NCBI RefSeq assembly: GCF_006345805.1
Contig: NC_043010.1
Coordinates: 65,224,001-65,288,000, forward strand
Length of the DNA: 64,000 bases
Reading direction: 5' to 3'
From: Octopus sinensis
Lineage: Eukaryota
Shown in pieces: positions 1 to 61,115 of this stretch; position 1 is the first letter of the stretch; each line of letters begins with the position of its first letter. Both the position numbers and the translations under genes were made by a program. The notes under the pieces were generated by a model. That model was not told the origin of the DNA. It did no database searches and saw only the letters and a list, made by a program, of their open reading frames with translations.

Positions 1-948
1 CTGCACGCCTGTGCTTCTGATCTGGCGACACGCGAGTTGTGGACCGGAGCGTTGTCCTGCAGGAGGAGGATGCCTTTGCTGATCTTGCCCCGACTCTTGA
101 TTTTGATAGCTTCTCTTAATTTCCTCAAAAGTGAAGCATAATAGGCTCTTGTAATTGTGGTACCTTTTGCCAGGAAATCTGTCATCACTACTCCGTCCTG
201 GTCCCAGAAGACTGTGAGCATAACCTTGTCAGCGGAGGGCTGCACCCTTGCCTTCTTTGGAGGAGGTGAGTCACGGTGCTTTCACTGCATTGACTGGGCT
301 TTGGTCTATGGATCATAGTGATGGACCCAGGTTTTATCCTGTGTGATCAGTCTTTTGAAAAATGTTGACTCATCTTCTTGGCACATCTCCAAATTCCTCC
401 TCGAGCACTCAACGCGTTCTTGCTTCTGGAAAGGTGTGAGCAACCTGGAAATCCATCTGGCAGACACCTTTTGCATATGCAAATGGTCATGAATGATAGT
501 TTCCACAGACCCGGTACTAATCTTGACCTCATGGGCTATTTGGCGAATAGTTATGCGTTGAGCTTCCAAAATGGCAGCCTCAACTTGACGGACAGACGTC
601 TCATCAACGGCAGAAGGGGGCGACCAGATCTGGGAACTGTTTCCACAGAGTTCCGACCATGTTTGAATTCACAATGCCAGCGTTTTACAAGGTCATATGA
701 TGGGGCATCATCACCATAAGTTACTTTCATTTCATCAAAAGTCTCCCGTGGTGTGCGTCCTTTCAAATACAAAAACCAGATCACTGCTCGACACTCAACA
801 GGCTCCATTTCACACTTGACTCAGTTCAAACACCTGTAAATCAGAAACCACAATTAGTTCAGAGCTGTAATTCGCCACTTAATCTATAGAGGTATAAGTA
901 AGTGCGCATGCAAGTGGGTCAGGGGCATTACTTATTGAACGCCCCTCG
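1..948 (-). mobile_element. Mariner (Tc1/mariner, irritans/Hsmar2-like) transposon copy 1, cut by the window edge; transposase frameshifted
   Basis: ORFs 551-808 and 306-569 give the mariner N-terminal HTH region and WISRLLT...ITQDKTWVHHYDP. The terminal inverted repeat ...CATTACTTATTGAACGCCCCTCG is followed by TA at 949-950. Confidence 0.92.
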
Positions 949-2586: not shown

Positions 2587-3819
2587 CGAGAGGCGTTCAA
2601 TAAGTAATGTCCCTGACCCGCTTCCCATAGTAGTAGAGCAACGAAACTTGGCACAGTTGTTGGTCTTTTTCTACATAGGAACCACCTAGAGTTACGCATT
2701 TCTCCCACCACGACGTGACTTCAGAAATCAAGGCTGCATCATCTGGGAAACGCTTTCCTTTCAAAAGCAACTTCATGGCTGGAAAGAGGTGAAAATCAGA
2801 GGGTGCAAGGTCAGGAGAGTAGGGGGATGGGGGAGGAGTTCATAGCCGCACGCCTGTGCTTCTGATCTGGCGACACTCGAGTTGTGGACCAGAGCGTTGT
2901 CCTGCAGGAGGAGGATGCCTTTGCTGATCTTGCCCCGACTCTTGATTTTGATAGCTTCTCTTAATTTCCTCAAAAGTGAAGCATAATAGGCTCTTGTAAT
3001 TGTGGTACCCTTTGCCAGGAAATCTGTCATCACTACTCCGTCCTGGTCCCAGAAGACTGTGAGCATGTCCTTGCCAGCGGAGGGCTGCACCCTTGCCTTC
3101 TTTGGAGGAGGTGAGTCACGGTGCTTCCACTGCATTGACTGGGCTCTGGTCTCTGGATCATAGTGATGGACCCAGGTTTCATCCTGTGTAATCAGTCTTT
3201 TGAAAAATTTTGACTCATCTTCTTGGCACATCTCCAAATTCATCATCGAGCACTCGACGCGTTCTTGCTTCTGGAAAGGTGTGAGCAACCTGGGAATCCA
3301 TCTGGTAGACACCTTTTGCATATGCAAATGGTTATGAATGATAGTCTCCACAGACCCGGTACTAATCGTGACCTCATGGGCTATTTGGCGAATAGTTATG
3401 CGTCGATCTTCCAAAATGGCAGCCTCAGCTTGACGGACAGATGCCTCATCAATGACAGAAGGGGGGCGACCAGATCTGGGAGCTGTTTACACAGAGTTCC
3501 GACCATGTTTGAATTCACGATGCCAGCGTTTTACAAGGTCATATGATGGGGCATCATCACCATAAGTTACTTTCATTTCATCAAAAGTCTCCCATGGTGT
3601 GCGTCCTTTCAAATACAAAAACCAGATCACTGCTCGACATTTAACAGACTCCATTTCACGCTTGACTCAGTTCAAACACCTGTAAATCAGAAACCCCAAT
3701 TAGTTTCTGATTTAATTTGCCACTTAATCTATAGAGATATACATAATTGCACATGCAAAATTTCAGCTAGATCAAACAAATGCAAGTGGGTCAGGAGCGT
3801 TACTTATTGAAGTCCCTCG
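2587..3819 (-). mobile_element. Mariner transposon copy 2, both ends present, defective transposase
   Basis: TIRs CGAGAGGCGTTCAATAAGTAATG... and ...CGTTACTTATTGAAGTCCCTCG, TA on both sides (2585-86, 3820-21). ORF 2773-3414 has WIPRLLT, TQDETW and LLQDN; the PYSPDLAPSDFHLFP motif is present but frameshifted. Confidence 0.95.
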
Positions 3820-14260: not shown

Positions 14261-14800
14261 AAAAGCGATATTTTGATACAGAGTCAGAATCAATGATAAT
14301 GCAATCGCAGTACAAGCTTAACTGTACATACATGTTTGGGTGTAAACTAAGACTAGACGAGAGGAAGTATTATTCGGTATTTGTTGCTAGGTCGATTAGG
14401 GAAACGGACAAGAGAAATATGACGGACATTTAATGTCGAAAGAGAGATATGGGTTTTAGTGTAGAGAGAGGAAGAATCTAATAAATTTTAGATTTATTTT
14501 ACGAGATGTGGCCCAGAACTTTAATGACCATTACATTGATTTACATGTTTAGAACTCACAGAGAGTAAATAATCTTATAATAACTCCAATAAAATCTGTG
14601 CTCTCTGAGACAATAGCTTTTGAGTTAGAAACGGTTTACCAATGGATATAGCATCCTGTGTTTCGCAGTTTTCAGGATGTAATAATTTAGAGGCTGAACC
14701 GCAATGGCAAAGCATTCTGAAACTAAAGAATCATTTGGACCAAAGCTACGGTCACGAACACTTACCAAAAATATGCTTAGATAATATATTGCGATTTGTT

Positions 14801-14965
14801 TATTTACCATCTCAATATGGCTAACCACTAAGGGTGGATGTTACTGTAGCTTGCAGCCCCAGGAGAACAACTCCTCTAGCTGGCTATAGACACACTTTCT
14901 GTGCCCTATCGGTATTTGCAATGGGAGATCAGCCCTAGAGGTTAGCCATATTGAGATGGCAAATA
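14801..14965. repeat. Truncated copy of hammerhead repeat family B, with a short inverted terminus
   Basis: CCATCTCAATATGGCTAACCACTAAGGGTGG... matches 29500 onward and ends in the inverted GGTTAGCCATATTGAGATGGCAAATA. Confidence 0.8.
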
Positions 14966-14969
14966 TACG

Positions 14970-15013
<44 letters not shown>

Positions 15014-15259: not shown

Positions 15260-16140
15260 CACACATACCGCCTTCTCTTGCACTTTTTCTTCACCCATTC
15301 CCTTCTTGTCAGTTCAATATGTGACCGCGTGTGTATCGTTGGCGATTCTCTTTCTCCGTCTTCCCATCCTTGGACCTTTCCTTTTTCTATGTTTCTGACG
15401 AAGAGTTCCGCTCGAAACGTTAAATCCTCCTTACTTCTTTCCTTTCCTGGGTGTCCAATAACACTACACCTGTTCCACGTCCTCTCGTTGTTGTGTTTTC
15501 TCTTTGTTCATGTTTGGAGTAACTATATATATATAGACAAAAAGAGCCACTCCTAATTCCTTCTTCCTTGACCTTAAACAATACTTAGCCCTACAACACG
15601 CACAGATTAACAGCCACAACCACACACACATACACACACGCACACACACACGTGCTATCATTGCACATATACACACACACGCAGACCTTCGCGCACGCAC
15701 ATATCCACACTCTCTCTGTGTATCTTTCTGTTGAAGAGCGTAGGCTCGAAACGTTAAAGACTTGTTTTATTTATATTTCCTGAGCGCCATACTAATACAA
15801 TTGTTCGTTTGTTTTCCACCTGCCTTCGTCTTTTGTTTATTTTCATAAAGCTTCCCCTTACACACACATACCTCGTCTTGCACTCTCCCGTCTTTGAAAG
15901 AACTTTTATTCTCCCATTTTTCCTTCCGATTATTCAAAATGTGACCGCGTGTGAACCGTTGGCGATTTTTTCTCCTCCGTCTTCTCTTCTCTGGATCTTT
16001 CGTTTTCCTATGTTTTCTGACGAAGAGCTCCGCTCGAAACGTTAAAACCTCCTTCTTTCCTTCTTTCCTGAGCGTCCAATAATACTATATTTGTTCCACG
16101 TCCTCGCGTTGTTGTGTTTTTTTGTGCTTTCATGATTGGA
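15260..16140 (+). repeat. Cluster of family-C pLTR-like repeats with three minimal hammerhead motifs (15391-15425, 15723-15760, 16012-16048)
   Basis: For example GTTTT CTGACGA A GAGC-TCC-GCTC GAAA CG TT AAAAC; all share the downstream TTCCTG(A/G)G(C/T)G tract. Confidence 0.65.
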
Positions 16141-16342: not shown

Positions 16343-16348
<6 letters not shown>

Positions 16349-17685
16349 GTTATCGCCATACTAATATGGCATTCTTATAAAAACAAGAAAAAAGCTGTCC
16401 GCTTATTAGCTCCATGAGGCCATCGCCTTAAGTTAGCTATTTGATACACAAACTGTATCCATATAACCTTCGAACAAGGGAGGTCAGTCGCTCCACACTA
16501 CTTGACCGGCAGCTACAGACGCGTTTCGGGGTATTGCCCCTTTTCAATGCAGCGTAGCCAGCCAGTAGGTGTCGCTTCCGACAATCTCTGTTCGATGGTT
16601 TTATTTACCTAGTTTCGGTGGAATACATCCACTTGTTTTCAATAATAGAAATATTAAAATAACTAAGTCTCTCTAAAAGAGAACAGCGGCAGCGTTCCCG
16701 GAAAATAATAGTTATCGCCATACTAATATGGCATTCTTATAAAAATAAGAAAAAAGCTGTCCGCTTATTAGCTCCATGAGGCCATCGCCTTAAGTTAGCT
16801 ATTTGATACACAAACTGTATCCATATAACCTTCGAACAAGGGAGGTCAGTCGCTCCACACTACTTGACCGGCAGCTACAGACGCGTTTCGGGTATTGCCC
16901 CTTTTCAATGCAGCGTAGCCAGCCAGTAGGTGTCGCTTCCGACAATCTCTGTTCGATGGTTTTATTTACCTAGTTTCGGTGGAATACATCCACTTGTTTT
17001 CAATAATAGAAATATTAAAATAACTAAGTCTCTCTAAAAGAGAACAGCGGCAGCGTTCCCGGAAAATAATAGTTATCGCCATACTAATATGGCATTCTTA
17101 TAAAAATAAGAAAAAAGCTGTCCGCTTATTAGCTCCATGAGGCCATCGCCTTAAGTTAGCTATTTGATACACAAACTGTATCCATATAACCTTCGAACAA
17201 GGGAGGTCAGTCGCTCCACACTACTTGACCGGCAGCTACAGACGCGTTTCGGGGTATTGCCCCTTTTCAATGCAGGAACGCTGCCGCTGTTCTCTTTTAG
17301 AGAGACTTAGTTATTTTAATATTTCTATTATTGAAAACAAGTGGATGTATTCCACCGAAACTAGGTAAATAAAACCATCGAACAGAGATTGTCGGAAGCG
17401 ACACCTACTGGCTGGCTACGCTGCATTGAAAAGGGGCAATACCCCGAACGCGTCTGTAGCTGCCGGTCAAGTAGTGTGGAGCGACTGACCTCCCTTGTTC
17501 GAAGGTTATATGGATACAGTTTGTGTATCAAATAGCTAACTTAAGGCGATGGCCTCATGGAGCTAATAAGCGGACAGCTTTTTTCTTATTTTTATAAGAA
17601 TGCCATATTAGTATGGCGATAACTATTATTTTCCGGGAACGCTGCCGCTGTTCTCTTTTAGAGAGACTTAGTTATTTTAATATTT
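16343..17685. repeat. 362-bp unit array: ~2.6 head-to-tail copies (starts 16343, 16705, 17066) followed by ~1.1 inverted copies (17275-17685), embedded in (TA)n; retrozyme/PLE pLTR-like
   Basis: Near-identical units differing by isolated substitutions and homopolymer indels; each carries a hammerhead motif. Confidence 0.92.
16498..16568 (-). ncRNA. Type I hammerhead ribozyme, U3-A8 core variant (family A); further copies at 16874-16914(-), 17235-17275(-), 17420-17460(+)
   Basis: Minus strand reads GCTGCA TTGAAAA GGGG-CAATA-CCCC GAAA CGCG TC^ TGTAGC. Stem I extends (GGCTGGC/GCCGGTC, CTAC/GTAG) and stem III is the palindrome ACGCGT. Confidence 0.78.
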
Positions 17686-17700
17686 GTACATATATAATAC

Positions 17701-22789: not shown

Positions 22790-23360
22790 AAGGCGGCAAG
22801 CTGGCAGAAACGTTAGCACACAGGGAAAATGCGTAGCCGTATTTCGTCTCCGTTACGTTCTGAGTTCAAATTCCGCCGAGGTCGACTTTGCCTTTCATTC
22901 TTTTGGGGTCGATAAATTAAGTACCAGTTACACACTGGGATCGATGTAATCGACTCAATCCGTTTGTCTGTCCTTATTTGTTCTCTCTGTGTTTAGCCCC
23001 TTGTGGGTAGTAAACAAATAGCTATTTCGTCTGCCGTGCGTTCTGAGTTCAAATTCTGCCGAGGGTGACTTTACCTTTCATCCTTTCGGCGTCGATTAAA
23101 AGAGTACAAGTTACGCACTGGGGTCGATATAATCGACTCAATTCGTTTGTCTGTCCTTGTTTGTCCTTTGTGTTTAGCCCCTTGTGGGTAGAAAACAAAT
23201 AGGTATTTCGTCTGCCGTTACGTTCTGTGTTCAAATACTGCCGAGGTCGACTTTGCTTTTCATCCTTTAGGGGTCGATTAAATAAGTACCAGTTACGCAC
23301 TGGAGTCGATATAATCGACTGGTCTCCTCCACAAACATTTAGGGCCATGCGCCTACAATA
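22790..23360 (+). mobile_element. tRNA-derived SINE with an internal ~185-bp segment repeated about three times
   Basis: A-box-like AGCTGGCAGAAACGTTAG, B-box-like GAGTTCAAATTCC, repeated GTCGACTTTGCCTTTCATCCTTT..GGGGTCGAT..AAGTACCAG; same family at 33827-34400. Confidence 0.75.
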
Positions 23361-26298: not shown

Positions 26299-26992
26299 TA
26301 TAAATTTAATCTAATAATATTCAATTTAAAATCTTCATTAATCAGTTATTTTGAGGAGAGCAAATTGTACGTCATAATTGTATATTCATCTCGATTTCCC
26401 CAAACAATATTTTCTACAGCAAATATAGAAATGTGTTTTAGAATCCAATGTAAAATAAGTCTGCGCTAAAAATTCAGCCAGATGTAGAATTGAAGAAAAT
26501 TCTTCAAGATGAAAGAGTATCGGTTTCTTTTTTTTTTTTTGCACGAGGTCAGCAGGTTCGGAGAAGGGGGATAGTTGATTACATAGACTCCAATATTCAG
26601 CTGGTACTTATTTTATGGACTCCGAAAAGTAAAGACGAACCCGGCGCCATTTGAACTCAGAACGTAATAGTGAAAGAAGTGTGGTAGCGATTCTGCCAGT
26701 TCGCAGCCTCAAGCTATAGGAATACACTACCTTTGTCGATATCCTTACCAGATGTTTTACGTATATTTTCTTTAGAATTGTTAAGTTTTTGCATTAAAAC
26801 AGTCATTTCCCATTCGGTAAATAAGGGCGATACATAAATAAACGTCTTACAAGGTATACACTGCATTTATGTTATTATGTACAAAAAATGTGGTTTACAT
26901 AAATGTGTGACTGTTTCATAAGTTATACTTTCAAGATACATTATACTAAAATCTTTTTACACTTTATTAATTCTGACATTTATATTTTCCAG

Positions 26993-27251
26993 TTAATATT
27001 GCTCAAGGTCAACTACAAGCAAACAAGTATATATGGAATAAAAGGAACTACAGTCTTCCATAATGGAACTTGTGAAAAAATGAATATATCGATGGCATCC
27101 GACAAAGCAGTTGACGGAAATTTTGATCCTGGAATTACGCATAAATCATGTGCAAGTACTGACTGGGAAAAATATCCATATTGGCAAGTGATGTTTGATA
27201 AACCATACACGATATCCCAACTGAGAATATATAATCGAATGGGAAATAATC
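26993..27251 (+). CDS. Exon 6: N-terminal half of a fucolectin/F5/8-type C (FTP) domain, apparently frameshifted near 27010-27016
   Basis: TTTTCCAG acceptor, C|GTAAGT donor. VNIAQGQ is in the entry frame; KQTS...SDKAVDGN...SCAST..EKYPYWQV.F...ISQLRIYNR is in a shifted frame. Length is 259 bp. Confidence 0.85.
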
Positions 27252-28659
27252 GTAAGTATTGTTAAAAAGTTATTAATGTTGTCGGTTCGTCTCAGTTTAT
27301 CTTGATTCAGCAGGATTATTATCGAAAGTGTTCCAGCCGTGACTCTGTATGACAGTATCGTGCGTTTTGACAGAAAGTTTGTTTTCTAGTTCTAACGATT
27401 CCAGTGGCCGATTAAAAGAATCTTCGTTGGCTCACAATACATTTGTTTATTTATGTTGACACAGTGTATATAAATATTATATAGCAAGTTAAAAGAATAT
27501 TATTATTGTTGATGAAATTTGATTTGTTTTTGATAATGGAAATGAGTTTTGTTTTCTCTTTACTTTGAACATCAGAAGGGACCAACGTGTGATTGATGAA
27601 AACGTTGTACTCTTTTAATAATATGGCGGCTATGACCTCGCCAACAAAATTTCCTTTCGGTCTGTAACACCTCTAATTGCTAGTGCAATACTTCACTTTA
27701 GAGTGTAAGGGTTTTGGTGGCTTTCGTATCTATTTTTATGGTCGCGCCATTATTAAACCGATTGTTTGTAATACAGTATTATAGCAGCCAGAGTTGAATA
27801 TAATGTATTCATATTTAAAAAGAAATGTTCATGCATTTGTGTATAACTACATGTATATGCACACAGGTGCACACGCGCACATACAGATGCATAACTAGAA
27901 AAGCACTCGGAGAGAGCAGATCTTCGCCAAACCAGCAGGAGCAGCACTACGACGTCAACGTTGACGACGACGACCACCACTACCACCATATCACAATCAC
28001 CACAACAACTATCCTACCTCTATCACCAACATCAACAACAGCATTGTCATTGCTTCCACTTCAACCGCATACATCGCCATCAACGTTATCATGACGATTA
28101 CCTTGACAGTCACTTTCACCACCACAACCAGTATAACCACTACAATACCACCATTACGCAACTAACACTATCATCAGCACCACTATTACCACCATCATCT
28201 CAGCGTCACACATAACACCGCTCCTGTCGCCATTATAAACACCGATACTATTTTATCCTCCTCCCAAATTTATCTCGATCATCGCCATCATCAACACTGT
28301 CTCTTCTGTCACCACAATCACCGTCAAAACTTCGATCATCACAATCAGTTTCTTTACACCGTGAAAATTCCATTATCCGATACTCATGGGACACAGCGGC
28401 GGTGGAGGGAGCAAAGCCTGAGTTTTTCAGTCGATCCTAATAGTCAAGGCTTGTCATGTCATCATCCGCAGACCTCCACCAATTTTAAGATAGATGCGCC
28501 AGTAAAATTTCCTAATAGAGAAACGAAAATAAACTTTGGAAACAGCAACGCCACCATACGTTACGTGAAATCGATGAACGTGTTTTCAAGGGGGATAATC
28601 AAAGAACGTAACCTTGTAATACGTCATGTAATGTAAATATAACAAATTAAAAATCCTTC

Positions 28660-28963: not shown

Positions 28964-29490
28964 GGGAGTATATCCAAACTTACAGGGAAAAATTAGATTT
29001 AGGATTAAATCAAATTTCACAGTATAAATATAAATTAAATTAGAGATAAAACCACTATTAGGCAAATCAAACAGTGATAGACATAAACCAAAACATAAAA
29101 AACAAAAATAGATTAATTAATATAATATACAAGATATATATAAAATATAAATTTTAAAATATTAAAATTTGAAATTTTTAAATATATATTTATAGATTTT
29201 TATATTTTTATATTTTAAATTTATAAAATTTTAAACTATTAATTTTTTAATGTTTTAATTTATTAATTATTTTTAAACTAACCAAAATTATTAAAAATTT
29301 AATATAATATAATAAGTAAAAACACTACGTACTTTTCATGGCTATTATTCAATTCGAATTACAATTAAGTTTAACTTCAATTAAAAATTCGAATTAAAAT
29401 TATAGTCAATCTTCAGGTTAATGATAATAGTTAAATGAATAAGCAAATAGAGTTAAATAATATTTTTTAGTAAATAAATAAAATAATATA

Positions 29491-30097
29491 AGGTATACTT
29501 GCCATCTCAATATGGCTAACCACTAAGGGTGGGTGTTACTGTAGTTTGTAGCCCCAGGAGAACATCATCTCCAGCTGGCTTTAGGTACACTTTCTGTGCC
29601 CTTATGGTATTTGCAAAGGGAGGTCACCCTTCCCTCGTCAACCTAAGTGATACGCATGGACTGCAGTTTCTAGGTTTTGACCTATCCTCAGCGTACGACA
29701 ATCACCGGTTTCGATGAAGGGAGGTCCCAATGCAAATTCTTATATCATTTTTCCAGTAACCGGTGATTGTCGTACGCTGAGGACAGTTTCTAGGTTTTGA
29801 CCTGTCCTCAGCGTACGACAATCACCGTTACTGGAAAAACGATATAAGAATTTGCATTGGGACCTCCCTTCATCGAAAGCCGGTGATTGTCGTACGCTGA
29901 GGACAGGTCAAAACCTAGAAACTGCAGTCCGTGCGTATCACTTATGTTGACGAGGGAAGGGTGACCTCCCTTTGCAAATACCATAAGGGCACAGAAAGTG
30001 TGCCTAAAGCCAGCTGGAGACGATGTTCTCCTGGGGCTACAAACTACAGTAACACCCACCCTTAGTGGTTAGCCATATTGAGATGGCAAGTACACCT
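29491..30097. repeat. ~600-bp near-perfect palindrome made of inverted copies of hammerhead repeat family B, with a nested central hairpin
   Basis: Arms 29491-~29760 and ~29827-30097 are reverse complements; the centre consists of two partial ribozyme fragments. Confidence 0.92.
29882..29942 (+). ncRNA. Type I hammerhead ribozyme, family B (mirror copy at 29646-29706 on the - strand)
   Basis: CGTACG CTGAGGA CAGGT-CAAA-ACCTA GAAA CTGCAG TC^ CGTGCG, with distal stem I GGTGAT/ATCACT. The minus copy has TAGGT/ACCTA as stem II. Confidence 0.82.
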
Positions 30098-30649
30098 CAC
30101 AATGAAATAATAATTTTTCTTATAAAAGACCCTATTATCAAATGAGATACTTAAAAAATTAGGATTATGTCATACAACCCATTTATTATGTTAAATATTA
30201 ATTTTTAAGGTAAAACAATAGATAGAAAAATGTATTTATCTCTTAAGATATAACATGGCTTTGAAAAACATAATAAACTCACGAATATCCTAAACTCAGT
30301 TATAGTCAATATCTAATAACCAAATTATTTAACAAAATAATCACTATTCATAGTGAACTCAAATAAACAAATATAATTAGCCTTCATTAAAATATTTTCA
30401 ATATACAATATAAACGAATGGAATTAGCCTAACACAAGTCGAACATACAATGAGTAAATTGACAGAAAATTCGAGAGAATCTTTACATAGAGTCAATCAA
30501 CCTTGTTACTTTCAATGGCATAAAACTAAATCACTATGCATACCACGAATGCAACCCTGTACGACGTACTAAGTGTGTGTGCGCACGCGTGTGTGTGTAT
30601 ATATCTATTATAATAAACTTCGCAATGTATATATTCTGGTCAGTGAAAT

Positions 30650-33826: not shown

Positions 33827-34400
33827 AGGAGGTGAGCTGGCAGAATCGTTAGGACGCTGAACCAAATGCTTAGCGGTATTTCGTCTGCCGCTACGTTCTG
33901 AGTTCAAATTCCCCCGAGGTCGACTTTGCCTTTCATCCTTTTGGGGTCGATAAATTAAGTACCAGTTACACACTGGGGTCGATGTAATCGACTTAATACC
34001 TATGTCTGTCCTTGTTTGTCCCTTCTGTGTTTAGCCCCTTGTGGGTAGTAAAGAAATAGGTATTTCGCCTGTCGCTATTTTCTCAGTCCAAATTCCGCCG
34101 AGGTCGACTTTGCCTTTCATCTTTTCAGAGTCGATTAAACAAGTACCAGTTACGCATTGGTGTCGATATAATCGACTTAATCCGTTTGTCTGTCCTTGTT
34201 TGTCCTCTCTGTGTTTAGCCCCTTGTGGGTAGTAAAGAAATAGGTATTTAGCCTGTTACTAAGTTCTAAATTTAAATTCCGCTGAGGGGACATTGCCTTT
34301 CATCTTTTCGAGGTCGATAAATTAATTACACTTGAAACGCTGGGGTCGATGTAATAGACTCATCCCTTCCCCCAAAATAGTTGCCCTTGTGCCAAAATTT
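33827..34400 (+). mobile_element. tRNA-derived SINE (same family as 22790-23360) with internal tandem repeats and an (ATT)n tail
   Basis: Direct sequence similarity to 22790-23360. Confidence 0.75.
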
Positions 34401-34464: not shown

Positions 34465-34555
<91 letters not shown>

Positions 34556-34569
34556 TGTTGTTGTTGTTG

Positions 34570-35720
34570 TTGTTGTCCATTTAAAACGGGTTTGAATTTG
34601 TCAATGAAATTCTTTTCTCTGCCTTTTCTCTCGACTTCGCTTGAGATGTGTAATTTGTAGAATAGGAATATTATAAACATTTTCTGACTACATGCAGCCA
34701 GAAGGTTGCTTACAGGATCCCTTATTTGCTGTCGGTGCACATGTGAACGTTCCGATAGTGCATTCCCAGTCTGACCGACGTTTATTCCTTCCCAATTCGG
34801 GCATTTGATGCAGTAAACTAGCAAACTTGCACAAAGGAACGAATTAAAGGATATAATCACGGATCTATTTCGTTTTGGGATTTGGTTTGCAAGATTCTTT
34901 ATATGAGTTCGTGTGTTGAAGCATATTTAGTTGTGTCTGAGGAGATCCATTTTCTTTTGTGCCTTATAATGTAACACACTCACCGGTAAAATTTCCAATC
35001 ATTTCTTATTTTTATTTTCCTAAAATTTTCGTTGCGTCTTGCAAAATTTTCAATTGTCTTGAAGAATATTGAAAAGGTTGCAAGACGCAACGAAACTTTT
35101 AGGAAAATAAAAATTTCGGGAAAATAAAAATAAGAAATAATTGGAAATTTTACTGGTGAGTGTGTTACATTATAAAGCACAAAAAGAAAATGACTCTCCT
35201 CAGACACAACAGAATCACAGATCTAGCTTTGATTCTAAGTAAAAGACAGACGAAAGCTTGACACACTTGTTAACAAAGGCAAAGTTTGAGCTAAACAACA
35301 ATGATGATTCATTCGTTGTATCCAAATGCAATGGTAATCGAAGAATATTTGTCAATGCAAATAGGAACTACAAAAGCAGATATTTAATTTATTGCATCAG
35401 ATGACCGAATTGTGAAGAGAAATACGTTGGTCAGACTGGAATGAATTATCGGAACGCAAACATAAGTACCAACAACAAATCAGAGACCCTGATGCCTATC
35501 AGACCCCTTTAAGCAACATTCTAGCAACATGTGGTCAGAAAATGTGTATAATGTGAATAATTCTACAAACTACACAACTCAAGTGATGGTGTTGGTAGTG
35601 TTACGCATATTAACGTTGATTTGATTGAAATCTAAAATTTCTGGAAAATTGTAGGAATCGTAGCAAGAGAATTCAATGAAAAGAGGGATGTTATTGACAA
35701 CATTCTTCAATACAGCCAAA
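34570..35720. mobile_element. Two divergent, oppositely oriented PLE GIY-YIG endonuclease remnants (34570-34860 on -, ~35340-35720 on +) either side of a fold-back repeat
   Basis: Minus: LVYCIKCPNWEGINVGQTGNALSER..VHRQQIRDP. Plus: LIYCIR*PNCEEKYVGQTG...QQQIRDP. Confidence 0.72.
34930..35210. repeat. ~280-bp fold-back (inverted repeat)
   Basis: GTTGTGTCTGAGGAG...GTTGCGTCTTGCAA is reverse-complemented by TTGCAAGACGCAAC...CTCCTCAGACACAAC. Confidence 0.85.
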
Positions 35721-38373: not shown

Positions 38374-41300
38374 TGTCCTTTGTCTCCACCATCTACCGTG
38401 GCTATTTATAGACCCAAAGAACATGAATTCTTTAACCACCCATTCTCCAACACAATGGAGTGTTGATGGTGGCTGTGGCTACACATTGAAGATGATGATG
38501 GTGATGGTGATGTTGCTGATGATGGTGATGGTGGTGAAGATGATAGTAATAACAATAATAACTGACAGATCCCGTCTTTTTCCCTTTCTTTTCGTTTCCT
38601 TCTCCGTATTTTATTCTCATTATTTCGAACTAATACAGACACAGTAAGCCTTGAAGAAAGGAAGAGGAGGAAAGGAGAAAAAAAAAAAAATGTCCGGAGA
38701 TAAAACTATCAACAAAAAAAATACAGACGAATATAGATCTGCTAGTCTTAAGAAGCGGCGCTATGAGCAATGCTTACATGTAGTGAACCCTAAACTGACA
38801 GATCCATCTCCTAATATAAGAATGGATGCTCGTCATGCTTCAAGGTCAACAAATCAAACAATAAACCGCATTGGTCGTTGCGCGGATTACAAAAGACCAC
38901 GTACCCGAAAATTGAACCAAATCCTGATTGAAAAATCAGTTACTGGATCAAATCTTCCCAACACACAGGAGCTGGACGAACCCCACAACCGGAATATTCC
39001 AACAGATGGCCATCCATGCTCATCACCAAATAATCAAAAGAAAAAGAAGGAAAAATGGTCTAGGGAAGATAATAAAGAAGTTCTCGAGGCCTTCTACCAT
39101 GCCATATATTTCCCCACAGATAAGTCTAGCACTGTACAAGCATACTTAAACTGGAGACAGAAACACCCTGAAGTAAGACCCTACATAGACAGTAACAAGC
39201 TTGCCAATGTTAGAAGAAACATTATAAAAAAGAAATTACTGACTGAAGTAGAGATTGATCAGGTTAGACAAGCAATATCGGATAAAATGAACGAAGCTGC
39301 AGCTAGAGAAGATAATACAGAGGAAATGATTATAGACCAGCCCAGGGCGGATAAAAACGAAGAGAGGATTGAAAGAGTTAGTATAAGTGATAGGCAAAGT
39401 GAAATACGCCCTGAACCAATCATAAACACTAAGACAGATGAGCATCAAATAGATAAAGAAAGTCACACAAATATTGACCCAACAGAACTACATGAGCTAA
39501 AAAATCAAATCATGATTGAATGGCTGAAAATTAAAGAAACCAGCATGGATGAGCGTGATACACTTCCTAAAATCCGCAACTCTAACCAAAACATGAAAAT
39601 AATCGGTAAAATCCGGCTTGCACTTAAGGATATAATTTCAGTTAATGATGTTGATATCACAAACCTCAACCACCTATACTATGCATCCGCGAAAATCTCA
39701 ACGATCCTATGTGGTGTAAAGATTAGAAAACGGCAACAGTCCCACAAAAAGCCTTCTTGGCAAGAGCGTCTGCAACAACAAATTAAAGTATTTAGATCTG
39801 ACATTGAATATTTGAAAAACCTTAAGGCTCACAAGACTACCAAACCTACAAAAACCCCAAAATTACTGAAAAAATACAATATGAAAACTATACTTGATAT
39901 TGATGCCACCATAGAAACCATCAAACAAAAGGTATCTGCCAAAGCTACCCGCATAGCGAGGTATGAAAAGCGTGTTAGATTTTTCAAGGACAACAACATG
40001 TTCAAAAATAACACCAAGAATTTTTACAGGAAGATAGGAAAAACAGCGTTTACTGCAGGGTCTGTACCATCAAAAGAAGAAGTGCAGAGATTTTGGAATA
40101 AAATCTGGGCAGAAGAAAAAACACACAACGAAAAGGCCCCCTGGATTGACAGAATATCTACAGAACTGGATCCCTTAGAAGAGCAAAAGTGGGAGGGTGT
40201 CAAGGTAGAAGATATAAGATCTGCTCTCAGGAGGTCAAGCAAATGGAAGTCTCCAGGAAAGGATAAAATTCCTAACTTCTGGCTGAATGCCTTCCCAGAG
40301 AGCCATGAACTGCTAACAGAACTGTACAATGATGTTCTGCAACACCCTAGTAGGATGCCTCCTTGGCTAGTTAATGGGTTAACATTCCTGCTTCCAAAAA
40401 GTGAAGAAACAAATGAACCAAAAAACTATAGACCCATAACCTGCTTAACAACTATGTACAAAACTCTAACATCTGTCCTGACGGAATATACCTATAGTTT
40501 TTTAACAGACAGCAGCATATTCTCTAATGAACAGAAAGGATGTAAACGTGGATCCTACGGCTGTAAAGACCAACTACTCATCAATAAGATGATCTTAGAA
40601 GATTGTCACAAACGACACAAAAACTTATCAATAGCCTGGATAGACTATAAAAAGGCATTTGATAGCCTACCACATAGCTGGATTAGGAAATGCCTTGAAA
40701 TGTATAAGATAGCACCAACTCTGCGAAACTTCTTGACTGTAAGTATGAGATCATGGAGAACCACACTAACTCTGAACAGTGACAGTGAATCCCTAAATGC
40801 TGGTGATGTAAAAATTTCGTGTGGCATTTTCCAGGGTGACTCACTGTCACCACTCCTCTTTTGTTTATCCTTAATACCTCTCTCAAAGCTGCTCAATGAC
40901 GCGCAGTACGGGTATAAAATGTTTGATAAAAATATAAATCATCTCGTTTACATGGATGATTTAAAGCTTTTTGCAAAAAATGATCAACAACTCAAGGGCT
41001 TACTAGCGATAGTCAAACAATTCAGTGACGACATCAGAATGCAATTCGGCCTCGATAAATGTGCAAAGGCTACCTTTATCAAAGGAAAAATGACAGAAAC
41101 ATCTAACGTTAACCTTGACCAACAGAATGTCATAAAAGAACTAGACCCAGCGGAGAGCTACAAGTACCTAGGGGTAATTGAAGGGAACGGAATAAGGCAT
41201 TCAGAGATGAAGGAAAGGATCAGGAGAGAATGCTATCGAAGAGTGAGAGCAATACTCAAGACAGAGCTGAATGCAAGAAACAGGATCGAAGCAATCAATG

Positions 41301-42765
41301 CATTAGCTATACCAGTCGTGACTTACAGTTTCAATATTGTTAACTGGTCAATTACTGAAATATGTCAGCTCGACAGAAAAATAAGGAAACTGTTGACAAT
41401 GCATAGAATGCACCACCCTAAGGCAGATACAGAACGACTCTATCTGCCAAGAAAAGAGGGAGGCCGTGGTCTTTTGCAACTGGCAATAACAATGAAGATT
41501 GCTACAATTGGCCTAGACACCTACCTGAAAAACTCTGAGGACTGGATGTTAAAACTTGTCTCAAAACATGAAAACAAGGAAGCATCATACTCAGTCACAA
41601 AACAGGCAAAGGAATATCTAAGTGAATTCCGAATACAACCAATTTCGGAATTAGAGATAGACATACAAGGAACAAGCACAGAAAAAGCTAGGCGCATGAA
41701 AACCCGTGCCAAAACTGCGGCCTTAGATATTCTGAATAATAAATGGCAAGAAAAACCTCTCTACGGCAAATACCCAAAGAGAGCGAATAATGCAGATATC
41801 GACAAAGCCCTGACCCATCAATGGCTAATGGCCTCTGGCTTAAAATCTGAAACAGAGGGGTTTATCATAGCAGCTCAAGATCAATGCCTACCAACAAGAA
41901 ACTACCAGGCCAACATATTAAAGATCAGAAGCAGTCCAACGTGTCGTGTATGCAAGCAACAAAATGAAACCATTGACCATGTGGTCTCCAAGTGCAGTCT
42001 TCTAGCGCCTACAGAGTATCTCAACAGGCACGATAGAGCTGCACAATATATTCACTGGGTAATCTGTAAAAACCTGGATTTGCCCCATGAAAAAAACTGG
42101 TGGGAACACAAACCAACCCCAGTGCTTGAAAATGACCACATCTCACTCCTCTGGAACTTCACCATTCAAACTGACAGGAAGATAGATGCAAATAGGCCAG
42201 ACATCATATTGAAAGACTTCAAACAAAGAACATGCCTCCTCATTGATATGACTGTCCCAATCGATATAAACGTATCTGTCAGGACCTACCAAAAACTGAG
42301 CAAATATAAAGATCTTGAAATAGAAATCAGCAAAATGTGGAAGCTGAAGACTAAAACAATACCTGTTGTCATAGGTGCCCTGGGAATGATAGCAAAAGGG
42401 GCTGATAGCTACCTAACTCAGATACCAGGAAACCCAAAAATGGCAGAAGTTCAAAAGATAGTGCTCATGGGAACTGCTCATATCCTACGCAAAATACTCT
42501 CTATGTAACCTCAAGGTTTAAAACAACCATAATTTTCGGTTTAAAGAGGAAGGGGGAAAAAAAAGGAAAAAAAAAGAAAAAGGAAAAAAAAAACCCCTTT
42601 TTTTTTTTTTTTTTTTAAACATTCATTAGTACAACATCCCCACCCCCCAAATATATGGCACACTAGGCATAACAACAACATGAACTTCCAACCCTGTTGT
42701 CTCTTGAGGTCTCTGGGTGAGACTTGGAGCCAACTTGTACAAATATAAAGCAAAAGTCAAACATA

Positions 42766-50306: not shown

Positions 50307-51076
50307 AGGAAAGAAAGAAAGAAAGAAAGAAAGAAAGACAGACAGACAGAAAGAAAGAAATAGAGCGAGAATTAAGAGAAGAGAAGGAGAGTAAGGAATT
50401 TTCGAAAACGGCAGCATGTTTTTGCTGGTGTCTTTTAATAACATGTCCTAAGCTAGACATTAACCTGCATCTCATGATGAGGTTCCAACTTTAGGGAGTA
50501 TAAAGTTACTTTTTAGTCACCACAAATCGGATCTCTGGCCTGAGATGGTAATACCAGTGAGGGATGAACTTAGCAGAAGCGATTATTGAGGCTAAGACAC
50601 CCAGGATTCGGAGTAGAGTCTGCTCTAAGACATGGGTCATGTAACCCTACCGCAATGTGGCCATGCCCTGATTTCACGTGAACTTCTTCCACTGTTTAAA
50701 GATTAAATAAGGCTTCTGGCTCAAGATAAAATTAGGAGAGTAGGAGACCAAAAGATTAACCTGTAAATACATCGCAGTAGGTAACGAGAATCTAATGCTG
50801 TATCTTGCACAAGGAAAATCAAGAATCTTCAGACTATGGTAGAGAGGTCCAAGTCAGCCGACGATTGTAGGCATGGGAGGGAGAGAGAGTGAGAGAGAGA
50901 GAGAGTGTGTAAGACAAAGAGAGTGAGCTTTTAGCCCCGAAACATGAAATGCTATATATTTTGCAATGTTTTCTCCCTTTCTTAAAATAGTAAACTCAAA
51001 CGTAAAAGGGACACTAATTCTCAGAGGATGAAAAGACTATATGTAGTCTTACACTTTTTCGAGATCAGTGACTTTC

Positions 51077-51334
51077 GTCACTGGAAGAAGGATATATGTA
51101 TTTGCATTGGGACCCCTTTCCATGGAAGACCGGTGATTGTCGCGCGCTGACGACGGGTAAATACCCAGAAACCCGGGCCCGTGCGTATCACGTCAGGTCG
51201 ACGATAGGAAGGATGGCTTCCCTTTTCAAATACTGATAGGGCACAGAATAGCTAGCTGGAGAAAATGTTCTCCTCGGGCTACAAGCTACAGTAACATTCA
51301 CACTTAGTGGTTAGCCATATTTAAGTGTCAAATA
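51077..51334 (+). repeat. Diverged copy of hammerhead repeat family B (motif 51132-51191)
   Basis: CGCGCG CTGACGA CGGGT-AAAT-ACCCA GAAA CCCGGG CC CGTGCG; flanks are homologous to 29827-30092. Confidence 0.8.
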
Positions 51335-51395
51335 TTCTTAACATTGTGTTGTAGCTACTGTTTATACCTTGTTTAGAGATTTATTATATATACAC

Positions 51396-55515: not shown

Positions 55516-56460
55516 ATGATTTTTGAAAGATACTAAAAAAATATAATTTGTAGAACATTATGCATGCTGGATTTCGGTTGAGCGTTCTGTATCTAGTTCT
55601 GGAAATTGTGTTTTGTAAACGACAGACTATGCTGATGATGTTCCAGATGTTTGCGTATCCATATACAAAAATTTTAACAATTGAAAGTAATTAGTACATA
55701 TGTAATCGTTTTTTATTTCGTATATTTTCATTTGTCTTGCTTATTTTTACACTTTGGTTTTTTGCTGAGTTTAATCTTGAGAACACATTCTTCGTGGAAA
55801 ATGACGATTTTGACGTCTATATCTAGCGTATAGGCTGTCCAGCTTTAGTGGCCAGTCGTCTAAATTTTGTATGAAAAAAATGTCTAATCTTCGGATTCTT
55901 TAAAATATGCCAGGCCACTGGTTTTAATTGATTAATATCAATTTCTACCCTTATTTAATTATATATATATGTATATAAATAGATGAGTGTATTTTTACCT
56001 TGTTAACATTATTTTTACCTTGTTTTCATTATTTTTTCTAAAAATACTCTAGTAAACACAGTTATAGAGCGAGCATACAGTTGTAAGCATTGGCAAAAAC
56101 ATACATTTAGTGCATATATATAGTCTCTATCGTTATATATAATTTAAACTTTAATTTCCTTTATATTTAACACTCACTGTTAATATCCCTACTCTTTCTG
56201 TTAGCTACTTATGACATTATATCATATAACGTTTTTTTTAAACAATATTAATAGCGTTCTGTCAATCGCTATACAAATCCATCATTTTTTGCTAAAATGT
56301 CTTCTTGACGAGGTTCGTGTTTTTCACTTTCCTGATGAGAAGATTGCATTGTTTATACCATTTATTCTTTTGAATAGTATCAGTGGAATTTTCGAAACAT
56401 GTGTCGAAAGTAAAAATATTTGATTACACCTGCGTTAAACTCCATTTATTTATTCATATA

Positions 56461-57959: not shown

Positions 57960-58069
57960 CTGAAACGTAAAATACTTTTTCTATTCCTGAGCGTTATACT
58001 AATACATCTGTTTGTTTTGTACACCACTTGTCTTTGGCTTTTGTTCTTTCTCCTAAACTCTCCCTATTA

Positions 58070-61000
58070 CCAACTTCCCTTACCTCGACATTCCTGTTAA
58101 ATGTACGTGGCATCAACCCATCAATTATTGCCCCAAAATGGAAGATCCCATATATAGAGAGTTGGCTTGCCGAAATGGCACATTGCTTCCCTTTCTTTAT
58201 CCTTACCGAGACTCACCTGAACAACACCCATATGGACGCAGAGGTGAAAATAAAAGATTTCACCATTGTTCGTGCGGATCGCACAGACCGAAATAAGGGA
58301 GGGACAGCCATCTTTATCCATGACTCCTTTTCACTTGATGCCAAGGACACATTTTCCAATGGCTACTGTGAATCGGTATCACTATACAACAAAGCCAAGG
58401 ACATAACCATTGTTGGTCTTTACAGGCCTCCCCAGGTACCTCTAAAGTACTTTGAAGAGTGCCTTAGCAAAGTCAAGTCCTTCCTTCGGAAGTACCACTC
58501 CGGAAACATACTAGTGATGGGTGATTTTAACCTCCCTCATGTGAACTGGCCCACAAATACTCCGAAGTTAGGCAAGTGCTCTACATCAGATAGGGCAGCA
58601 GCTGAACTGCTCTCTAATCTGATGGATGAGTATTTCCTGACTCAGCTAGTGCTTGAACCAACGAGACAGTATAAAACGATCTTGGATCTGGTATTGACCA
58701 ATCACTCTAGCTACGTTCACAGCATTTCATTCGAAAAAACTCTCCTCTCAGACCACGACATGGTACTCTGCAATCTTAATTCCCGACATATAAAAACCAA
58801 ACCAGCCAATCCCACTCCATGGCACCCATTTGACAACATAAACTTCCACAAAGCGGACTGGGGAACAATCAGAAAGGATCTGTCTTCCATCGACTGGTCT
58901 TTTACTCTCAATTCCCCTCATATTGAGACCGCGTGGCAGCACTTTGAAAACATTGTCACCTATACATGCTCTAAACACGCTCCCAAGAAATCTACTAACA
59001 CAAACAGAAACCGGCTCCCTAAAAAGAAAAAAACACTCATCAGGCGCATCAAAAGACTCAACAAAAAAAATCAACCAATTAAAATATTCCCACACACAAC
59101 ATCCACATTCAATAACAATGAAAAGACTAGAGCTGGAAAAACTTCATCTGCAGACTAACATGAAAACCTCCATTGAAAATCAAAGAGCTGTGGAGGAACA
59201 ATGGGTAATCAAAAACATCAAACAGAACCCAAAAGTGTTCTATTCTTATGCAAATAAGCATAGAACCACTGTCTCACCCATTGGGCCATTGATTGATGAT
59301 AACGGCATTCCCCAACATGATGCTAAAGAAATGGCAGAAATACTGCAGAAACAATACTGCTCTGTCTTCAGTGTTCCCACTGATACTGACGTGAGGGAAA
59401 CGAACGAAGTTGACTCCCAACACAAAATCGCAGACATAACCTTCACTGCCACCGACATCGTAGCAGCAATAAATGAGGTCAAACATTACTCTGCTGTAGG
59501 CCCTGATAGATTTCCCGCTAGTCTCCTGAAGGAATGTAGATATCAACTTGCAGTCCCTCTGACCAACCTCTGGAGAAACTCGTTAGACGCAGGTTATATA
59601 CCGAAACAGTTTCTATCCCAGTCGGTCATCCCGGTTTTCAAACAGGGAAACAGATCCCTCGCAGTCAACTATCACCCAATCTCACTCACCTCCCACATCA
59701 TTAAAGTGTTTGAAAGAGTGTTAAGATCAAGGATAGCTGACTTCCTGGAGACCCACAAACTCCTAAATTCAAATCAGCATGGCTTTCGCTGTGGCAAGGA
59801 CTGTCTAACACAGCTCTTACACCACATTGAAGATGTACTCAAAGCCTTGGGAACAGGTTCGAACTCTGACGTCATATATCTTGACTTCAGTAAAGCGTTC
59901 GACAGGGTAGACCATAACATCCTACTCTCGAAATTGGCAAATGTTGGAATCCGTGGAAAAGTTCTACACTGGATTAAGTATTTCCTGGCGAATAAAACAC
60001 ATGTTGTAGTTGATGGAGTCCACTCAAACCCAGCAAAAGTCACCAGCGGTGTTCCCCAGGGAACTGTTTTCGGCCCGCTACTCTTCATAATTTACGTAAA
60101 CGACCTTTCCAGTGTCGTACATCACTGCAAAGTGAAAATATTCGCTGATGACACTAAGCTCCAGCAAATCGTCAATGAAGAAGCAGACCGAACTCAACTC
60201 CAGTCTGATCTATATGCTGTGAGTCAATGGGCAGACAGAAACAAAATGCAACTGAATGAGGGAAAATTTGAGCTGATGCATTTTGGAAGAAATTCCTCAC
60301 TAAAACAACCATACACTCTTCCTTCAGGGGAACCGCTCACAGCCTCTAACAATATCAGACACCTGGGTGTAATTGTTGATAACGATCTCAGTTGGAGTGC
60401 ACACATCAACAAGAAGGTTGATATAGCTCGTAGGATGAGTTCCTGGATCTGAAGAACTTTCCGGTCCAGAGAACAAGGTGTCATCATACCACTTTTTTCC
60501 TCCTTTGTACGGCCACACCTTGAATACTGCTGCCCACTGTGGTCTCCTCACACAAGACAAAACATCTCCAGAATTGAGTCACCCCAGAGGGCTCTCACTA
60601 AACAAATTGAAGGCATGGCTGCTCTCGATTATTGGGATCGCCTTAAAGCCTTGAAACTTTACTCCCTCCAGCGTCGCCGTGAGCGGTACATCATTTGTAC
60701 GATGTGGAAAACATACCGCCAACTTTGCCCAAACGACCTAAACATTAGCTTCAAGGTCCATCCAAGACTTGGACCACGGGCTATACGTCCCCTGCCAAAT
60801 TCAAGATCACAACATACATGTACACTGCAACATAATTTCTTTTCCTCAACAGGCTCTGCCCTATTTAACATTGTCCCGAGGGAGATCAAAGAGGAAAAGG
60901 ATCCCATCAACTTTAAACAGAGTCTGGATAGATTCCTTCAAAGAATACCAGATAAGCCACCCATAATTGGATACAACTCACCCAACAAGAACTCACTACT

Positions 61001-61115
61001 TGAACAAAACTTGACTTAAACAGGATTCGAATAATCCTATCAGGTGGTGCTATTAAGTTAGACATGGCCTGGACCAATCTCTGGTCGAAACATATCTAAG
61101 TTTATCTAAGTTTAT
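58070..61115 (+). mobile_element. CR1-like LINE ORF2 (APE + RT), 5'-truncated, lightly disabled
   Basis: APE motifs LTETHL, GDFN, LDLV and SDH; RT motifs YLDFSKAFD, GVPQGTV and FADD. One frameshift in A-runs near 59030-59070 and a TGA at 60450-52. The 3' end is a TATCTAAGTT repeat. Confidence 0.92.

What the first reader, a model, noticed from the sequence alone, without database searches (positions are those of the whole stretch)
51132..51191. Compensatory changes between distant family-B copies support a selected ribozyme fold
Seen, comparing with 29882-29942: stem II AGGT/ACCT becomes GGGT/ACCC; the stem III palindrome CTGCAG becomes CCCGGG and stays self-complementary; stem I CGTACG becomes CGCGCG and still pairs with CGTGCG; the core changes only at variable N7 (CTGAGGA to CTGACGA). 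Both + copies show C and A at the base of stem II. This copy has C at position 16.1 (GCC), which is probably inactivating. Keeping a palindrome through a two-base change points to selection for dimeric cleavage.
Basis: seen in the sequence. Interest (0 to 1): 0.7.

Follow-up and report, generated by a model that had tools for sequence, protein, structure and literature searches.

The report
Dimer-selected hammerhead in animal retrozyme family
This is a likely dead copy of a self-cutting RNA carried by thousands of short jumping repeats in an animal genome; the family's changes keep the ribozyme fold and a self-matching four-letter loop, which suggests the RNA cuts as a pair, a known design for which this family gives unusually clear evolutionary support.

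Summary
The letters are as reported, with two corrections: the loop change is four bases (TGCA to CCGG), and the stem I changes are one-sided. Both copies belong to a 351-357 nt tandem repeat with a canonical type I hammerhead (2,691 exact core hits, control 8), which fits a non-LTR retrozyme. The differences separate two amplified subfamilies. Across lineages the loop III tetraloop takes 8-10 forms, and 8/8, 9/10 and 8/8 are self-complementary (background 15%). G-U-compatible loops outnumber their reverse-complement mismatch class 294 to 18, while private mutations are strand-symmetric. These loop pairs can form only between two hammerheads, so selection on a dimer is well supported; cleavage itself is untested. 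The GCC at 16.1 is private to a three-copy segmental duplication. Insertions end about 170 or 215 nt past the cut site on (TA)n, like a Hydra-type Penelope element in the same genome, the likely helper. Palindromic loop III, dimer cleavage and retrozymes are published, so this is a new member of a known kind.

The parts
51049..51387 (+). Near unit-length monomer of the retrozyme-like repeat, CCGG subfamily, with an internal deletion of about 10 nt, ending at the long (+210-220) end on (TA)n
   Evidence: contigs of public runs join 51387 back to about 51050 through about 10 extra letters, i.e. head-to-tail units exist
51132..51191 (+). Type I hammerhead: distal stem I 51133-37/51187-91, stem I 51141-46/51180-85, core C3-A9 51147-53, stem II 51154-57/51164-67, loop II 51158-63, GAAA 51168-71
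51171..51178 (+). Stem III plus palindromic tetraloop CCGG (51173-76); predicted 8-bp intermolecular helix in a dimer
51178..51179 (+). C16.1 (family has U) and C17; predicted cut after 51179; private, likely inactivating change
29826..30105 (+). TGCA-subfamily copy, direct arm, hammerhead at 29882-29941, ends at about +175
29472..29760 (-). Inverted arm of the same insertion with its own hammerhead (core starts 29691), ends at about +174
29758..29829 (.). Fold-back junction made of the 5' half of the hammerhead, broken inside stem III
14798..14974 (-). Truncated third insertion (3' part only, short inverted piece, next to (CA)n), no hammerhead
55952..56459 (+). 3' end of a Hydra-like Penelope element (94% to L238) with an inverted tail piece; candidate helper family, not shown to be the helper

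Best explanation
The stretch is a likely inactive copy of a type I hammerhead carried by a roughly 353-nt non-coding tandem repeat (a non-LTR retrozyme), and its differences from the other copy mark subfamilies whose source RNAs were likely selected to keep the fold and a self-complementary loop III, which is predicted to let two hammerheads pair and cut as a dimer. Shown: the repeat unit, copy numbers, covariation, loop asymmetry, insertion ends. Inferred: tandem arrays are transcribed; two adjacent hammerheads swap stem III into an 8-bp helix and cut; monomers are ligated to circles, in which the lone 2-bp stem III is weak; a Penelope-like reverse transcriptase/endonuclease primes at (TA)n from a fixed internal site about 170 nt past the cut site and runs round the circle or along a multimer, giving tandem, 5'-truncated and inverted insertions. 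All units of a new array carry the same new loop, so only self-compatible loops keep amplifying, often through G.U intermediates.
For: Head-to-tail arrays with period 351-357 nt in 8 of 8 multi-unit loci checked (one spacing of 701 is two units). 2,691 canonical cores and 481 U3-A8 cores against 8 control hits each. Pair counts. Cluster-majority loops self-pairing in 8/8, 9/10 and 8/8 types against 15% for other variable 4-nt windows of the unit. T-NN-G 294 against C-NN-A 18; inner KK 275 against MM 142, the excess including an amplified CTGG lineage in tandem arrays. Private substitutions are symmetric: A>G/T>C 0.99, C>T/G>A 1.10. Decay inside the CCGG subfamily is symmetric too: TCGG 4, CCGA 3, CTGG 2, CCAG 2 of 30. 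Stem III hairpin is +1.1 to +2.9 kcal/mol; homoduplexes of the WC and G.U loops are -7.2 to -14.9; CCGA only -1.3. 3' ends fall at +165-179 or +210-224 (37 of 43 and 133 of 166), 5' ends are scattered; 18 of 19 classified ends of the youngest subfamily abut TA repeats against 6% background. A Penelope-like ORF with DKT, YRDD and C-terminal GIY-YIG-like region, its own hammerhead and (TA)n ends is abundant in the genome.
Against: No cleavage, circle or transcript was shown. The coral retrozyme with a similar short stem III cleaved at about 0.8/min from a monomer construct (PMC7229834), so dimer use may not be obligate. Moves between centre classes (GC, CG, TA) need a non-pairing intermediate or several changes. 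Counts are of copies, not independent events, and the lineage tree is weakly supported (bootstrap 24-74 except one clade). One of 15 clusters at threshold 0.10 had a mismatch majority (TCAG, a composite of three different old copies). No sequence is shared between the repeat and the candidate helper beyond nested insertions, and Pfam found nothing on its 778-aa ORF. The circular fold is significant for the young monomer (z -5.5) but not for the TGCA monomer tested (z -1.1). One array ends at the cut site.
Confidence: 0.82

Rival explanations
1. The hammerhead cuts as a monomer and the palindrome is selected for another RNA-RNA contact, such as pairing two RNAs for ligation, reverse transcription or template switching.
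For: The statistics show selection for self-pairing of loop III, not what the pairing does. The family has a canonical long stem I and hexaloop II that could support monomer activity; monomer constructs of coral and mussel retrozymes cleave (PMC7229834).
Against: The palindrome is continuous with A15.1-U16.1 and C15.2-G16.2, the helix that catalysis needs; the monomer hairpin has positive free energy; axolotl retrozymes cleave much better as dimers (PMC7229834).
Confidence: 0.1
2. The palindrome is kept by a mutational process (template switching at DNA palindromes, or A-to-I editing of the RNA before reverse transcription), not by selection.
For: Several subfamily changes are A-to-G in the sense strand; a fold-back junction sits in stem III at 29758-29829.
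Against: DNA-level repair of palindromes predicts equal numbers of T-NN-G and C-NN-A and no lasting G.U classes, but the counts are 294 to 18. Private A>G is not in excess over T>C (ratio 0.99). Pairs in stems I and II and the C3-G8 to U3-A8 core pair covary as well.
Confidence: 0.04
3. The repeat is the orphan terminal repeat (pLTR) of an autonomous Penelope-like element, not a separate retrozyme.
For: Insertions have Penelope-type anatomy: partial tandems, inverted 5'-truncated arms, a tail of about 45 nt on one arm.
Against: No shared longer sequence or ORF flanks the unit in 60 loci and none appeared among long frames of 225 loci; the unit closes head to tail; the hammerhead is canonical rather than minimal. 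The genome search scores only the best 40 candidates, so a rare full element is not excluded.
Confidence: 0.04

Closest known systems
Metazoan non-LTR retrozymes (Cervera and de la Pena 2020, PMC7229834; seen: parts 2-4 of 6, supplement not readable)
   Same: Short tandem repeat (mussel 350-390 nt, axolotl 330-350 nt) with one canonical type I hammerhead per unit, weak helix III with palindromic tetraloop, mismatch at the base of helix II in a subfamily (U.U in axolotl HHR_Amex2), no ORF, co-existing Penelope-like elements.
   Different: Different sequence family; transcription, cleavage and circles are shown there and not here; here at least 8 loop III types and three core variants (C3-G8, U3.G8, U3-A8, plus C4) occur within one family, and the fixed 3' ends are mapped.
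Repeat-type dimeric hammerheads (Perreault et al. 2011, PMC3088659; seen: passages, section 8, legend of Fig. S8)
   Same: Palindromic stem III/loop III allowing a dimer; natural C3-G8 to U3-A8 covariation; 15.1/16.1 mutants at least 10-fold slower.
   Different: That paper lists palindromes across ribozymes; I saw no within-family wobble-versus-mismatch test in the passages read.
Minimal hammerheads of Penelope-like elements (Cervera and de la Pena 2014, PMC4209133; seen: parts 1-2 of 4; Lunse et al. 2017 recalled only, not held)
   Same: Type I, palindromic 15.2-16.2 and loop 3, dimer model, opposite-strand pairs 100-700 bp apart, U3-A8 variant.
   Different: Those have long helix II, short helix I and no or tiny loop III; this one has 6-bp helix I, 4-bp helix II, hexaloop and tetraloop, and sits in a closed tandem unit without ORF.
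Hydra clade of Penelope-like elements (bioRxiv 10.1101/2021.04.23.441226; seen: passages, section 11) and the PLE-origin model of retrozymes (bioRxiv 10.64898/2026.07.22.740005; seen: parts 1-2 of 5, passages)
   Same: Insertion into (TA)n, partial tandems, inverted arms, a tail on one end, hammerheads in the terminal repeat.
   Different: This repeat codes for nothing and shares no detected sequence with the Hydra-like element found here; the 2026 preprint covers vertebrates, insects and one anthozoan and has no occurrence of octopus, cephalopod, palindrom or covari.

Membership tests
Type I hammerhead ribozyme | Core CUGANGA...GAAA...NUH with stems I, II, III in type I order | tested here: met
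   Family. This copy departs at 16.1 (C).
Type I hammerhead ribozyme | A15.1-U16.1 pair in this particular copy | tested here: not met
   C at 51178; 25 of 30 closest copies have GTC, 3 have GCC and share flanks.
Type I hammerhead ribozyme | Covariation of helices | tested here: met
   16 of 20 pairs with two-sided change; invariance of GAAAC and GTC is partly imposed by my search patterns.
Type I hammerhead ribozyme | G10.1-C11.1 pair at the base of helix II | tested here: inconclusive
   G-C in 4, C.A in 5, U.U in 2 of 11 lineages (threshold 0.10); this copy has C.A.
Type I hammerhead ribozyme | Match to an Rfam hammerhead model | tested here: not met
   No hammerhead among 97 matches at E<=1.
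Type I hammerhead ribozyme | Self-cleavage | not testable with these tools
   Needs in vitro transcription.
Non-LTR retrozyme | 150-450 nt head-to-tail repeats with one type I hammerhead per unit | tested here: met
   Periods 351-357 nt, arrays of 5-7 units.
Non-LTR retrozyme | No ORF, no LTR architecture, dispersed copies | tested here: met
   No shared flanking sequence or long frame; copies on many chromosomes.
Non-LTR retrozyme | Expressed as unit-length linear and circular RNA | tested here: inconclusive
   No holder on record as RNA; only contigs could be laid.
Non-LTR retrozyme | Monomer predicted as a stable self-paired circle | tested here: inconclusive
   z -5.5 for the young monomer, -1.1 for the TGCA monomer.
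Non-LTR retrozyme | Target-site duplications | not tested
   Ends lie in (TA)n, where duplications are hard to read.
Minimal hammerhead of a PLE pLTR | Helix II 7-8 bp, helix I 4-5 bp, attached to an RT/GIY-YIG ORF | tested here: not met
   Helix II 4 bp, helix I 6+5 bp; no ORF attached in fetched loci.
Non-autonomous partner of a Penelope-like element | PLE insertion anatomy (fixed 3' end, tail on one arm, inverted arm, microsatellite target) | tested here: met
Non-autonomous partner of a Penelope-like element | Sequence shared with the helper's terminal repeat | tested here: not met
   Only one PLE family was compared; no shared sequence apart from nested insertions.

The most novel reading that the evidence does not exclude
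Loop III works as a self-recognition code. Co-existing retrozyme subfamilies switched among mutually incompatible palindromes (TGCA x CCGG duplex -1.7 against -11 to -15 kcal/mol for matched pairs), so each lineage cuts only with its own kind, and dimer dependence is the unexplained brake that keeps monomer circles from re-opening. The fixed ends on (TA)n would make Hydra-clade Penelope elements the mobilising partner.
Probability: 0.25. Interest if true: 0.65.

Novelty: new member of a known kind. Interest (0 to 1): 0.4.

Why it matters
Published work leaves open what stops animal retrozyme circles from cutting themselves open and which retrotransposon moves them (PMC7229834, discussion). This family offers a natural allelic series for both questions: at least eight self-compatible loop III types with amplified G.U intermediates, evidence from the genome that the dimer helix mattered during real transposition, and sharply defined insertion ends that point to a Penelope-type enzyme priming inside the unit. 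The flagged copy itself is a decayed duplicate, and the design is known.

Tried and rejected
Rfam scan: no hammerhead, only microsatellite-driven miRNA hits. Expression: no RNA holder listed; contigs of four runs guessed to be RNA carry pieces of the young subfamily, but they cannot show strand, ends or circles and may be DNA, so they are not used as evidence. Single-strand folding of the 60-mers was not better than shuffles. A-to-I editing as the source of the asymmetry: no A>G excess among private changes. A distinct GCC subfamily: rejected, L001-L003 share kilobases of flank at 89-94% and the 65 non-U16.1 hits are scattered over all subfamilies. Ends at the cut site: 9 of 10 apparent cases were alignments stopping at the end of my query, one is real. 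Shared sequence with the Hydra-like element: none found; a short AAAAATAC resemblance seen by eye was not tested. Count of independent loop switches on a tree: support too low. R-scape was not available. Literature searches for a description of this family found none; subscription papers, Repbase and the unreadable supplement of PMC7229834 were not seen and may list it. Rows dropped: 19 of 246 motifs did not join the family; 4 more failed alignment; 200 of 223 had intact flanks, 152 distinct, 150 aligned.

Full report
Observation. They differ at 12 of 60 positions. The loop change TGCA to CCGG is four substitutions. The stem I changes are on one strand only. The stem II change is one compensatory pair (A-U to G-C at 10.2-11.2), above a C10.1.A11.1 mismatch. 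Position 16.1 is C. The homology extends far beyond the motif: 269 nt at 77% identity. Rfam finds no hammerhead in the window.

What carries it. The genome (G000, 2.7 Gb) holds thousands of candidates for either copy. The unit repeats head to tail with a period of 351-357 nt and one hammerhead per unit. No ORF or longer shared flank is attached in the loci fetched. Exact patterns give 2,691 canonical cores and 481 cores with U3-A8, each against 8 control hits. These counts include some other families: of 246 motifs extracted from 225 loci, 227 joined one family. This anatomy matches the non-LTR retrozymes of mussel, coral and axolotl (PMC7229834, parts 2-4 of 6 read).

The flagged copy. Among the 30 closest copies, 25 have GTC, 3 GCC, 1 ATC and 1 TTC. 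The three GCC copies also share the stem I T-to-C and kilobases of flank at 89-94% identity, so they are one insertion multiplied by segmental duplication. In contigs of a public run about 98% of depth at 51178 reads T. All 65 genomic motifs without U16.1 are scattered over subfamilies, with at most three alike. Mutants at 15.1/16.1 are at least 10-fold slower (PMC3088659, section 8). The copy is therefore likely inactive; that step is inferred.

Covariation. In 150 distinct 60-nt motifs, 16 of 20 named pairs change on both sides; the score is 0.314 against 0.194 in shuffles (0/500) and at most 0.129 when slid. These shuffles ignore relatedness, and the invariance of GAAAC and GTC is partly imposed by my patterns. 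At lineage level (11 clusters with 3 or more loci) every helical pair other than 10.1-11.1 is Watson-Crick or G.U, with one exception in stem I at one threshold, and the tertiary C3-G8 pair becomes U3-A8 in 3-4 of 11. A lineage with the new stem I and II letters but the old TGCA loop exists (L070), so the changes between the two window copies arose in separate steps.

The dimer test. Loop III positions 1-4 and 2-3 cannot pair within a tetraloop, only between two hammerheads. These two pairs are 92.7% paired against 64.9% in shuffles, score 0.806 against 0.335. With the loop masked during clustering, cluster majorities give ACGT, CCGG, CGCG, CTAG, TATA, TCGA, TGCA and the G.U types CTGG, TCGG, TGCG; CATG appears in further loci. 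Self-pairing types are 8/8, 9/10 and 8/8 at three thresholds against 15% for other variable 4-nt windows of the unit; the exception is a composite of three different old copies. The sharpest test uses classes that are reverse complements of each other and so arise equally by neutral DNA mutation. T-NN-G (U.G in the RNA) occurs 294 times, C-NN-A (mismatch) 18 times. For the inner pair the counts are 275 against 142; the listed mismatch hits are heterogeneous singles consistent with CpG decay, while the G.U side includes tandem arrays of a CTGG lineage. Private substitutions in five subfamilies are strand-symmetric (A>G/T>C 0.99, C>T/G>A 1.10), which argues against editing or a strand bias. These are copy counts, driven by a few amplified lineages, so the number of independent events is nearer ten than three hundred, and the lineage tree is too weak to count them exactly. 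Energies agree: stem III as a hairpin is +1.1 to +2.9 kcal/mol, matched duplexes -7.2 to -14.9, CCGA -1.3, TGCA with CCGG -1.7.

How it moves. Insertion 3' ends cluster at +165-179 and +210-224 nt after the predicted cut (37 of 43 with the young query, 133 of 166 with the TGCA query) while 5' ends are scattered. Only one array ends at the cut site. In the youngest subfamily 18 of 19 classified ends abut TA repeats (6% background; one further end was not classified), and in three inverted insertions one arm is short and the other carries the tail of about 45 nt. This is the anatomy described for Penelope-like elements, and (TA)n targeting for the Hydra clade (bioRxiv 10.1101/2021.04.23.441226, passages and section 11). 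A young, abundant element with a 778-aa frame bearing DKT, YRDD and a weak GIY-YIG match (E 0.0055 on a fragment, below Pfam's cut-off) is present; its 3' region holds a type I hammerhead with ATGT or ATAT loops in 33 motifs and two ends on (TA)n. It shares no detected sequence with the repeat, so it is a candidate helper only. Ends placed inside the unit fit reverse transcription of a circle or a multimer from an internal site; that is inference.

What is not shown. No run on record as RNA holds the sequence, and contigs cannot show circles or cut ends. Cleavage, dimer dependence, ligation and the helper are untested. Monomer constructs of the coral retrozyme cleave well (PMC7229834), so dimer use may raise efficiency without being obligate.

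Comparison and verdict. Palindromic loop III with dimer cleavage (PMC3088659 Fig. S8 legend; PMC4209133), U3-A8 cores, helix II base mismatches, retrozymes and their proposed Penelope origin (bioRxiv 10.64898/2026.07.22.740005) are all in print. Six searches found no description of this family or of the wobble-against-mismatch test; an annotation of 235 hammerhead 1 ribozymes in the giant squid genome exists (PMC6962438, one passage). The scan's notes hold nothing near this place or like this sequence; notes elsewhere in the genome concern a different, scrambled hammerhead. The thing is a new member of a known kind with good evolutionary evidence for the dimer model. Interest 0.4.

Noticed in passing
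window 16343-17688: A separate 361-nt tandem and inverted repeat, 99% identical units, between (TA)n tracts. On the inverted arm a hairpin, GAAAC, a short palindrome and GTC come before a CTGA, i.e. hammerhead parts in scrambled order, as other notes in this genome describe.
   Followed up: no
window 55952-56459; L256, L257: 3' end of a young Hydra-like Penelope family with its own type I hammerhead (mostly C4 core, long helix II, loop ATGT or ATAT) and an inverted tail.
   Followed up: partly
L063, L126, L131, L258-L261: Whole subfamilies carry variant cores: U3-A8 (481 hits), U3.G8 in tandem arrays, and C4. The U3.G8 arrays may be an amplified intermediate of a catalytic-core covariation.
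   Followed up: partly
The usually conserved G10.1-C11.1 pair is C.A or U.U in most lineages and G-C in the youngest; attenuated catalysis may be tolerated or favoured.
   Followed up: no
L219 (G000:C1:105633807-105637253): Very young subfamily (TCGA loop, G10.1-C11.1), copies 97-100% alike, arrays of about 7 units; best candidate for bench tests.
   Followed up: partly
window 29758-29829: Perfect fold-back of the 5' half of the hammerhead with the switch point inside stem III at a 3-nt microhomology, 5 nt from the predicted cut.
   Followed up: no
L176, L207, L211, L216, L220, L133, L209: A second, older hammerhead-bearing repeat family with the same spacing but unrelated flanks.
   Followed up: no
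window 22839-23320 and 33875-34360: 183-184 nt tandem repeat family, SINE-like.
   Followed up: no
window 38648-42508 (+): Uninterrupted 1,286-aa frame with RVT_1 and weak zf-RVT matches, a non-LTR retrotransposon.
   Followed up: partly
window 306-668, 2773-3486 (-); 57971-61019 (+); 26903-27265 (+); 34552-34926 (-): Mariner-like transposase pieces and a broken LINE (read by eye), a possible exon with a galactose-binding/F5-8 type C domain, and a weak GIY-YIG fragment.
   Followed up: no
window 16017-16050 (+): CTGACGA-hairpin-GAAACGTT motif resembling a minimal hammerhead inside a common repeat.
   Followed up: no
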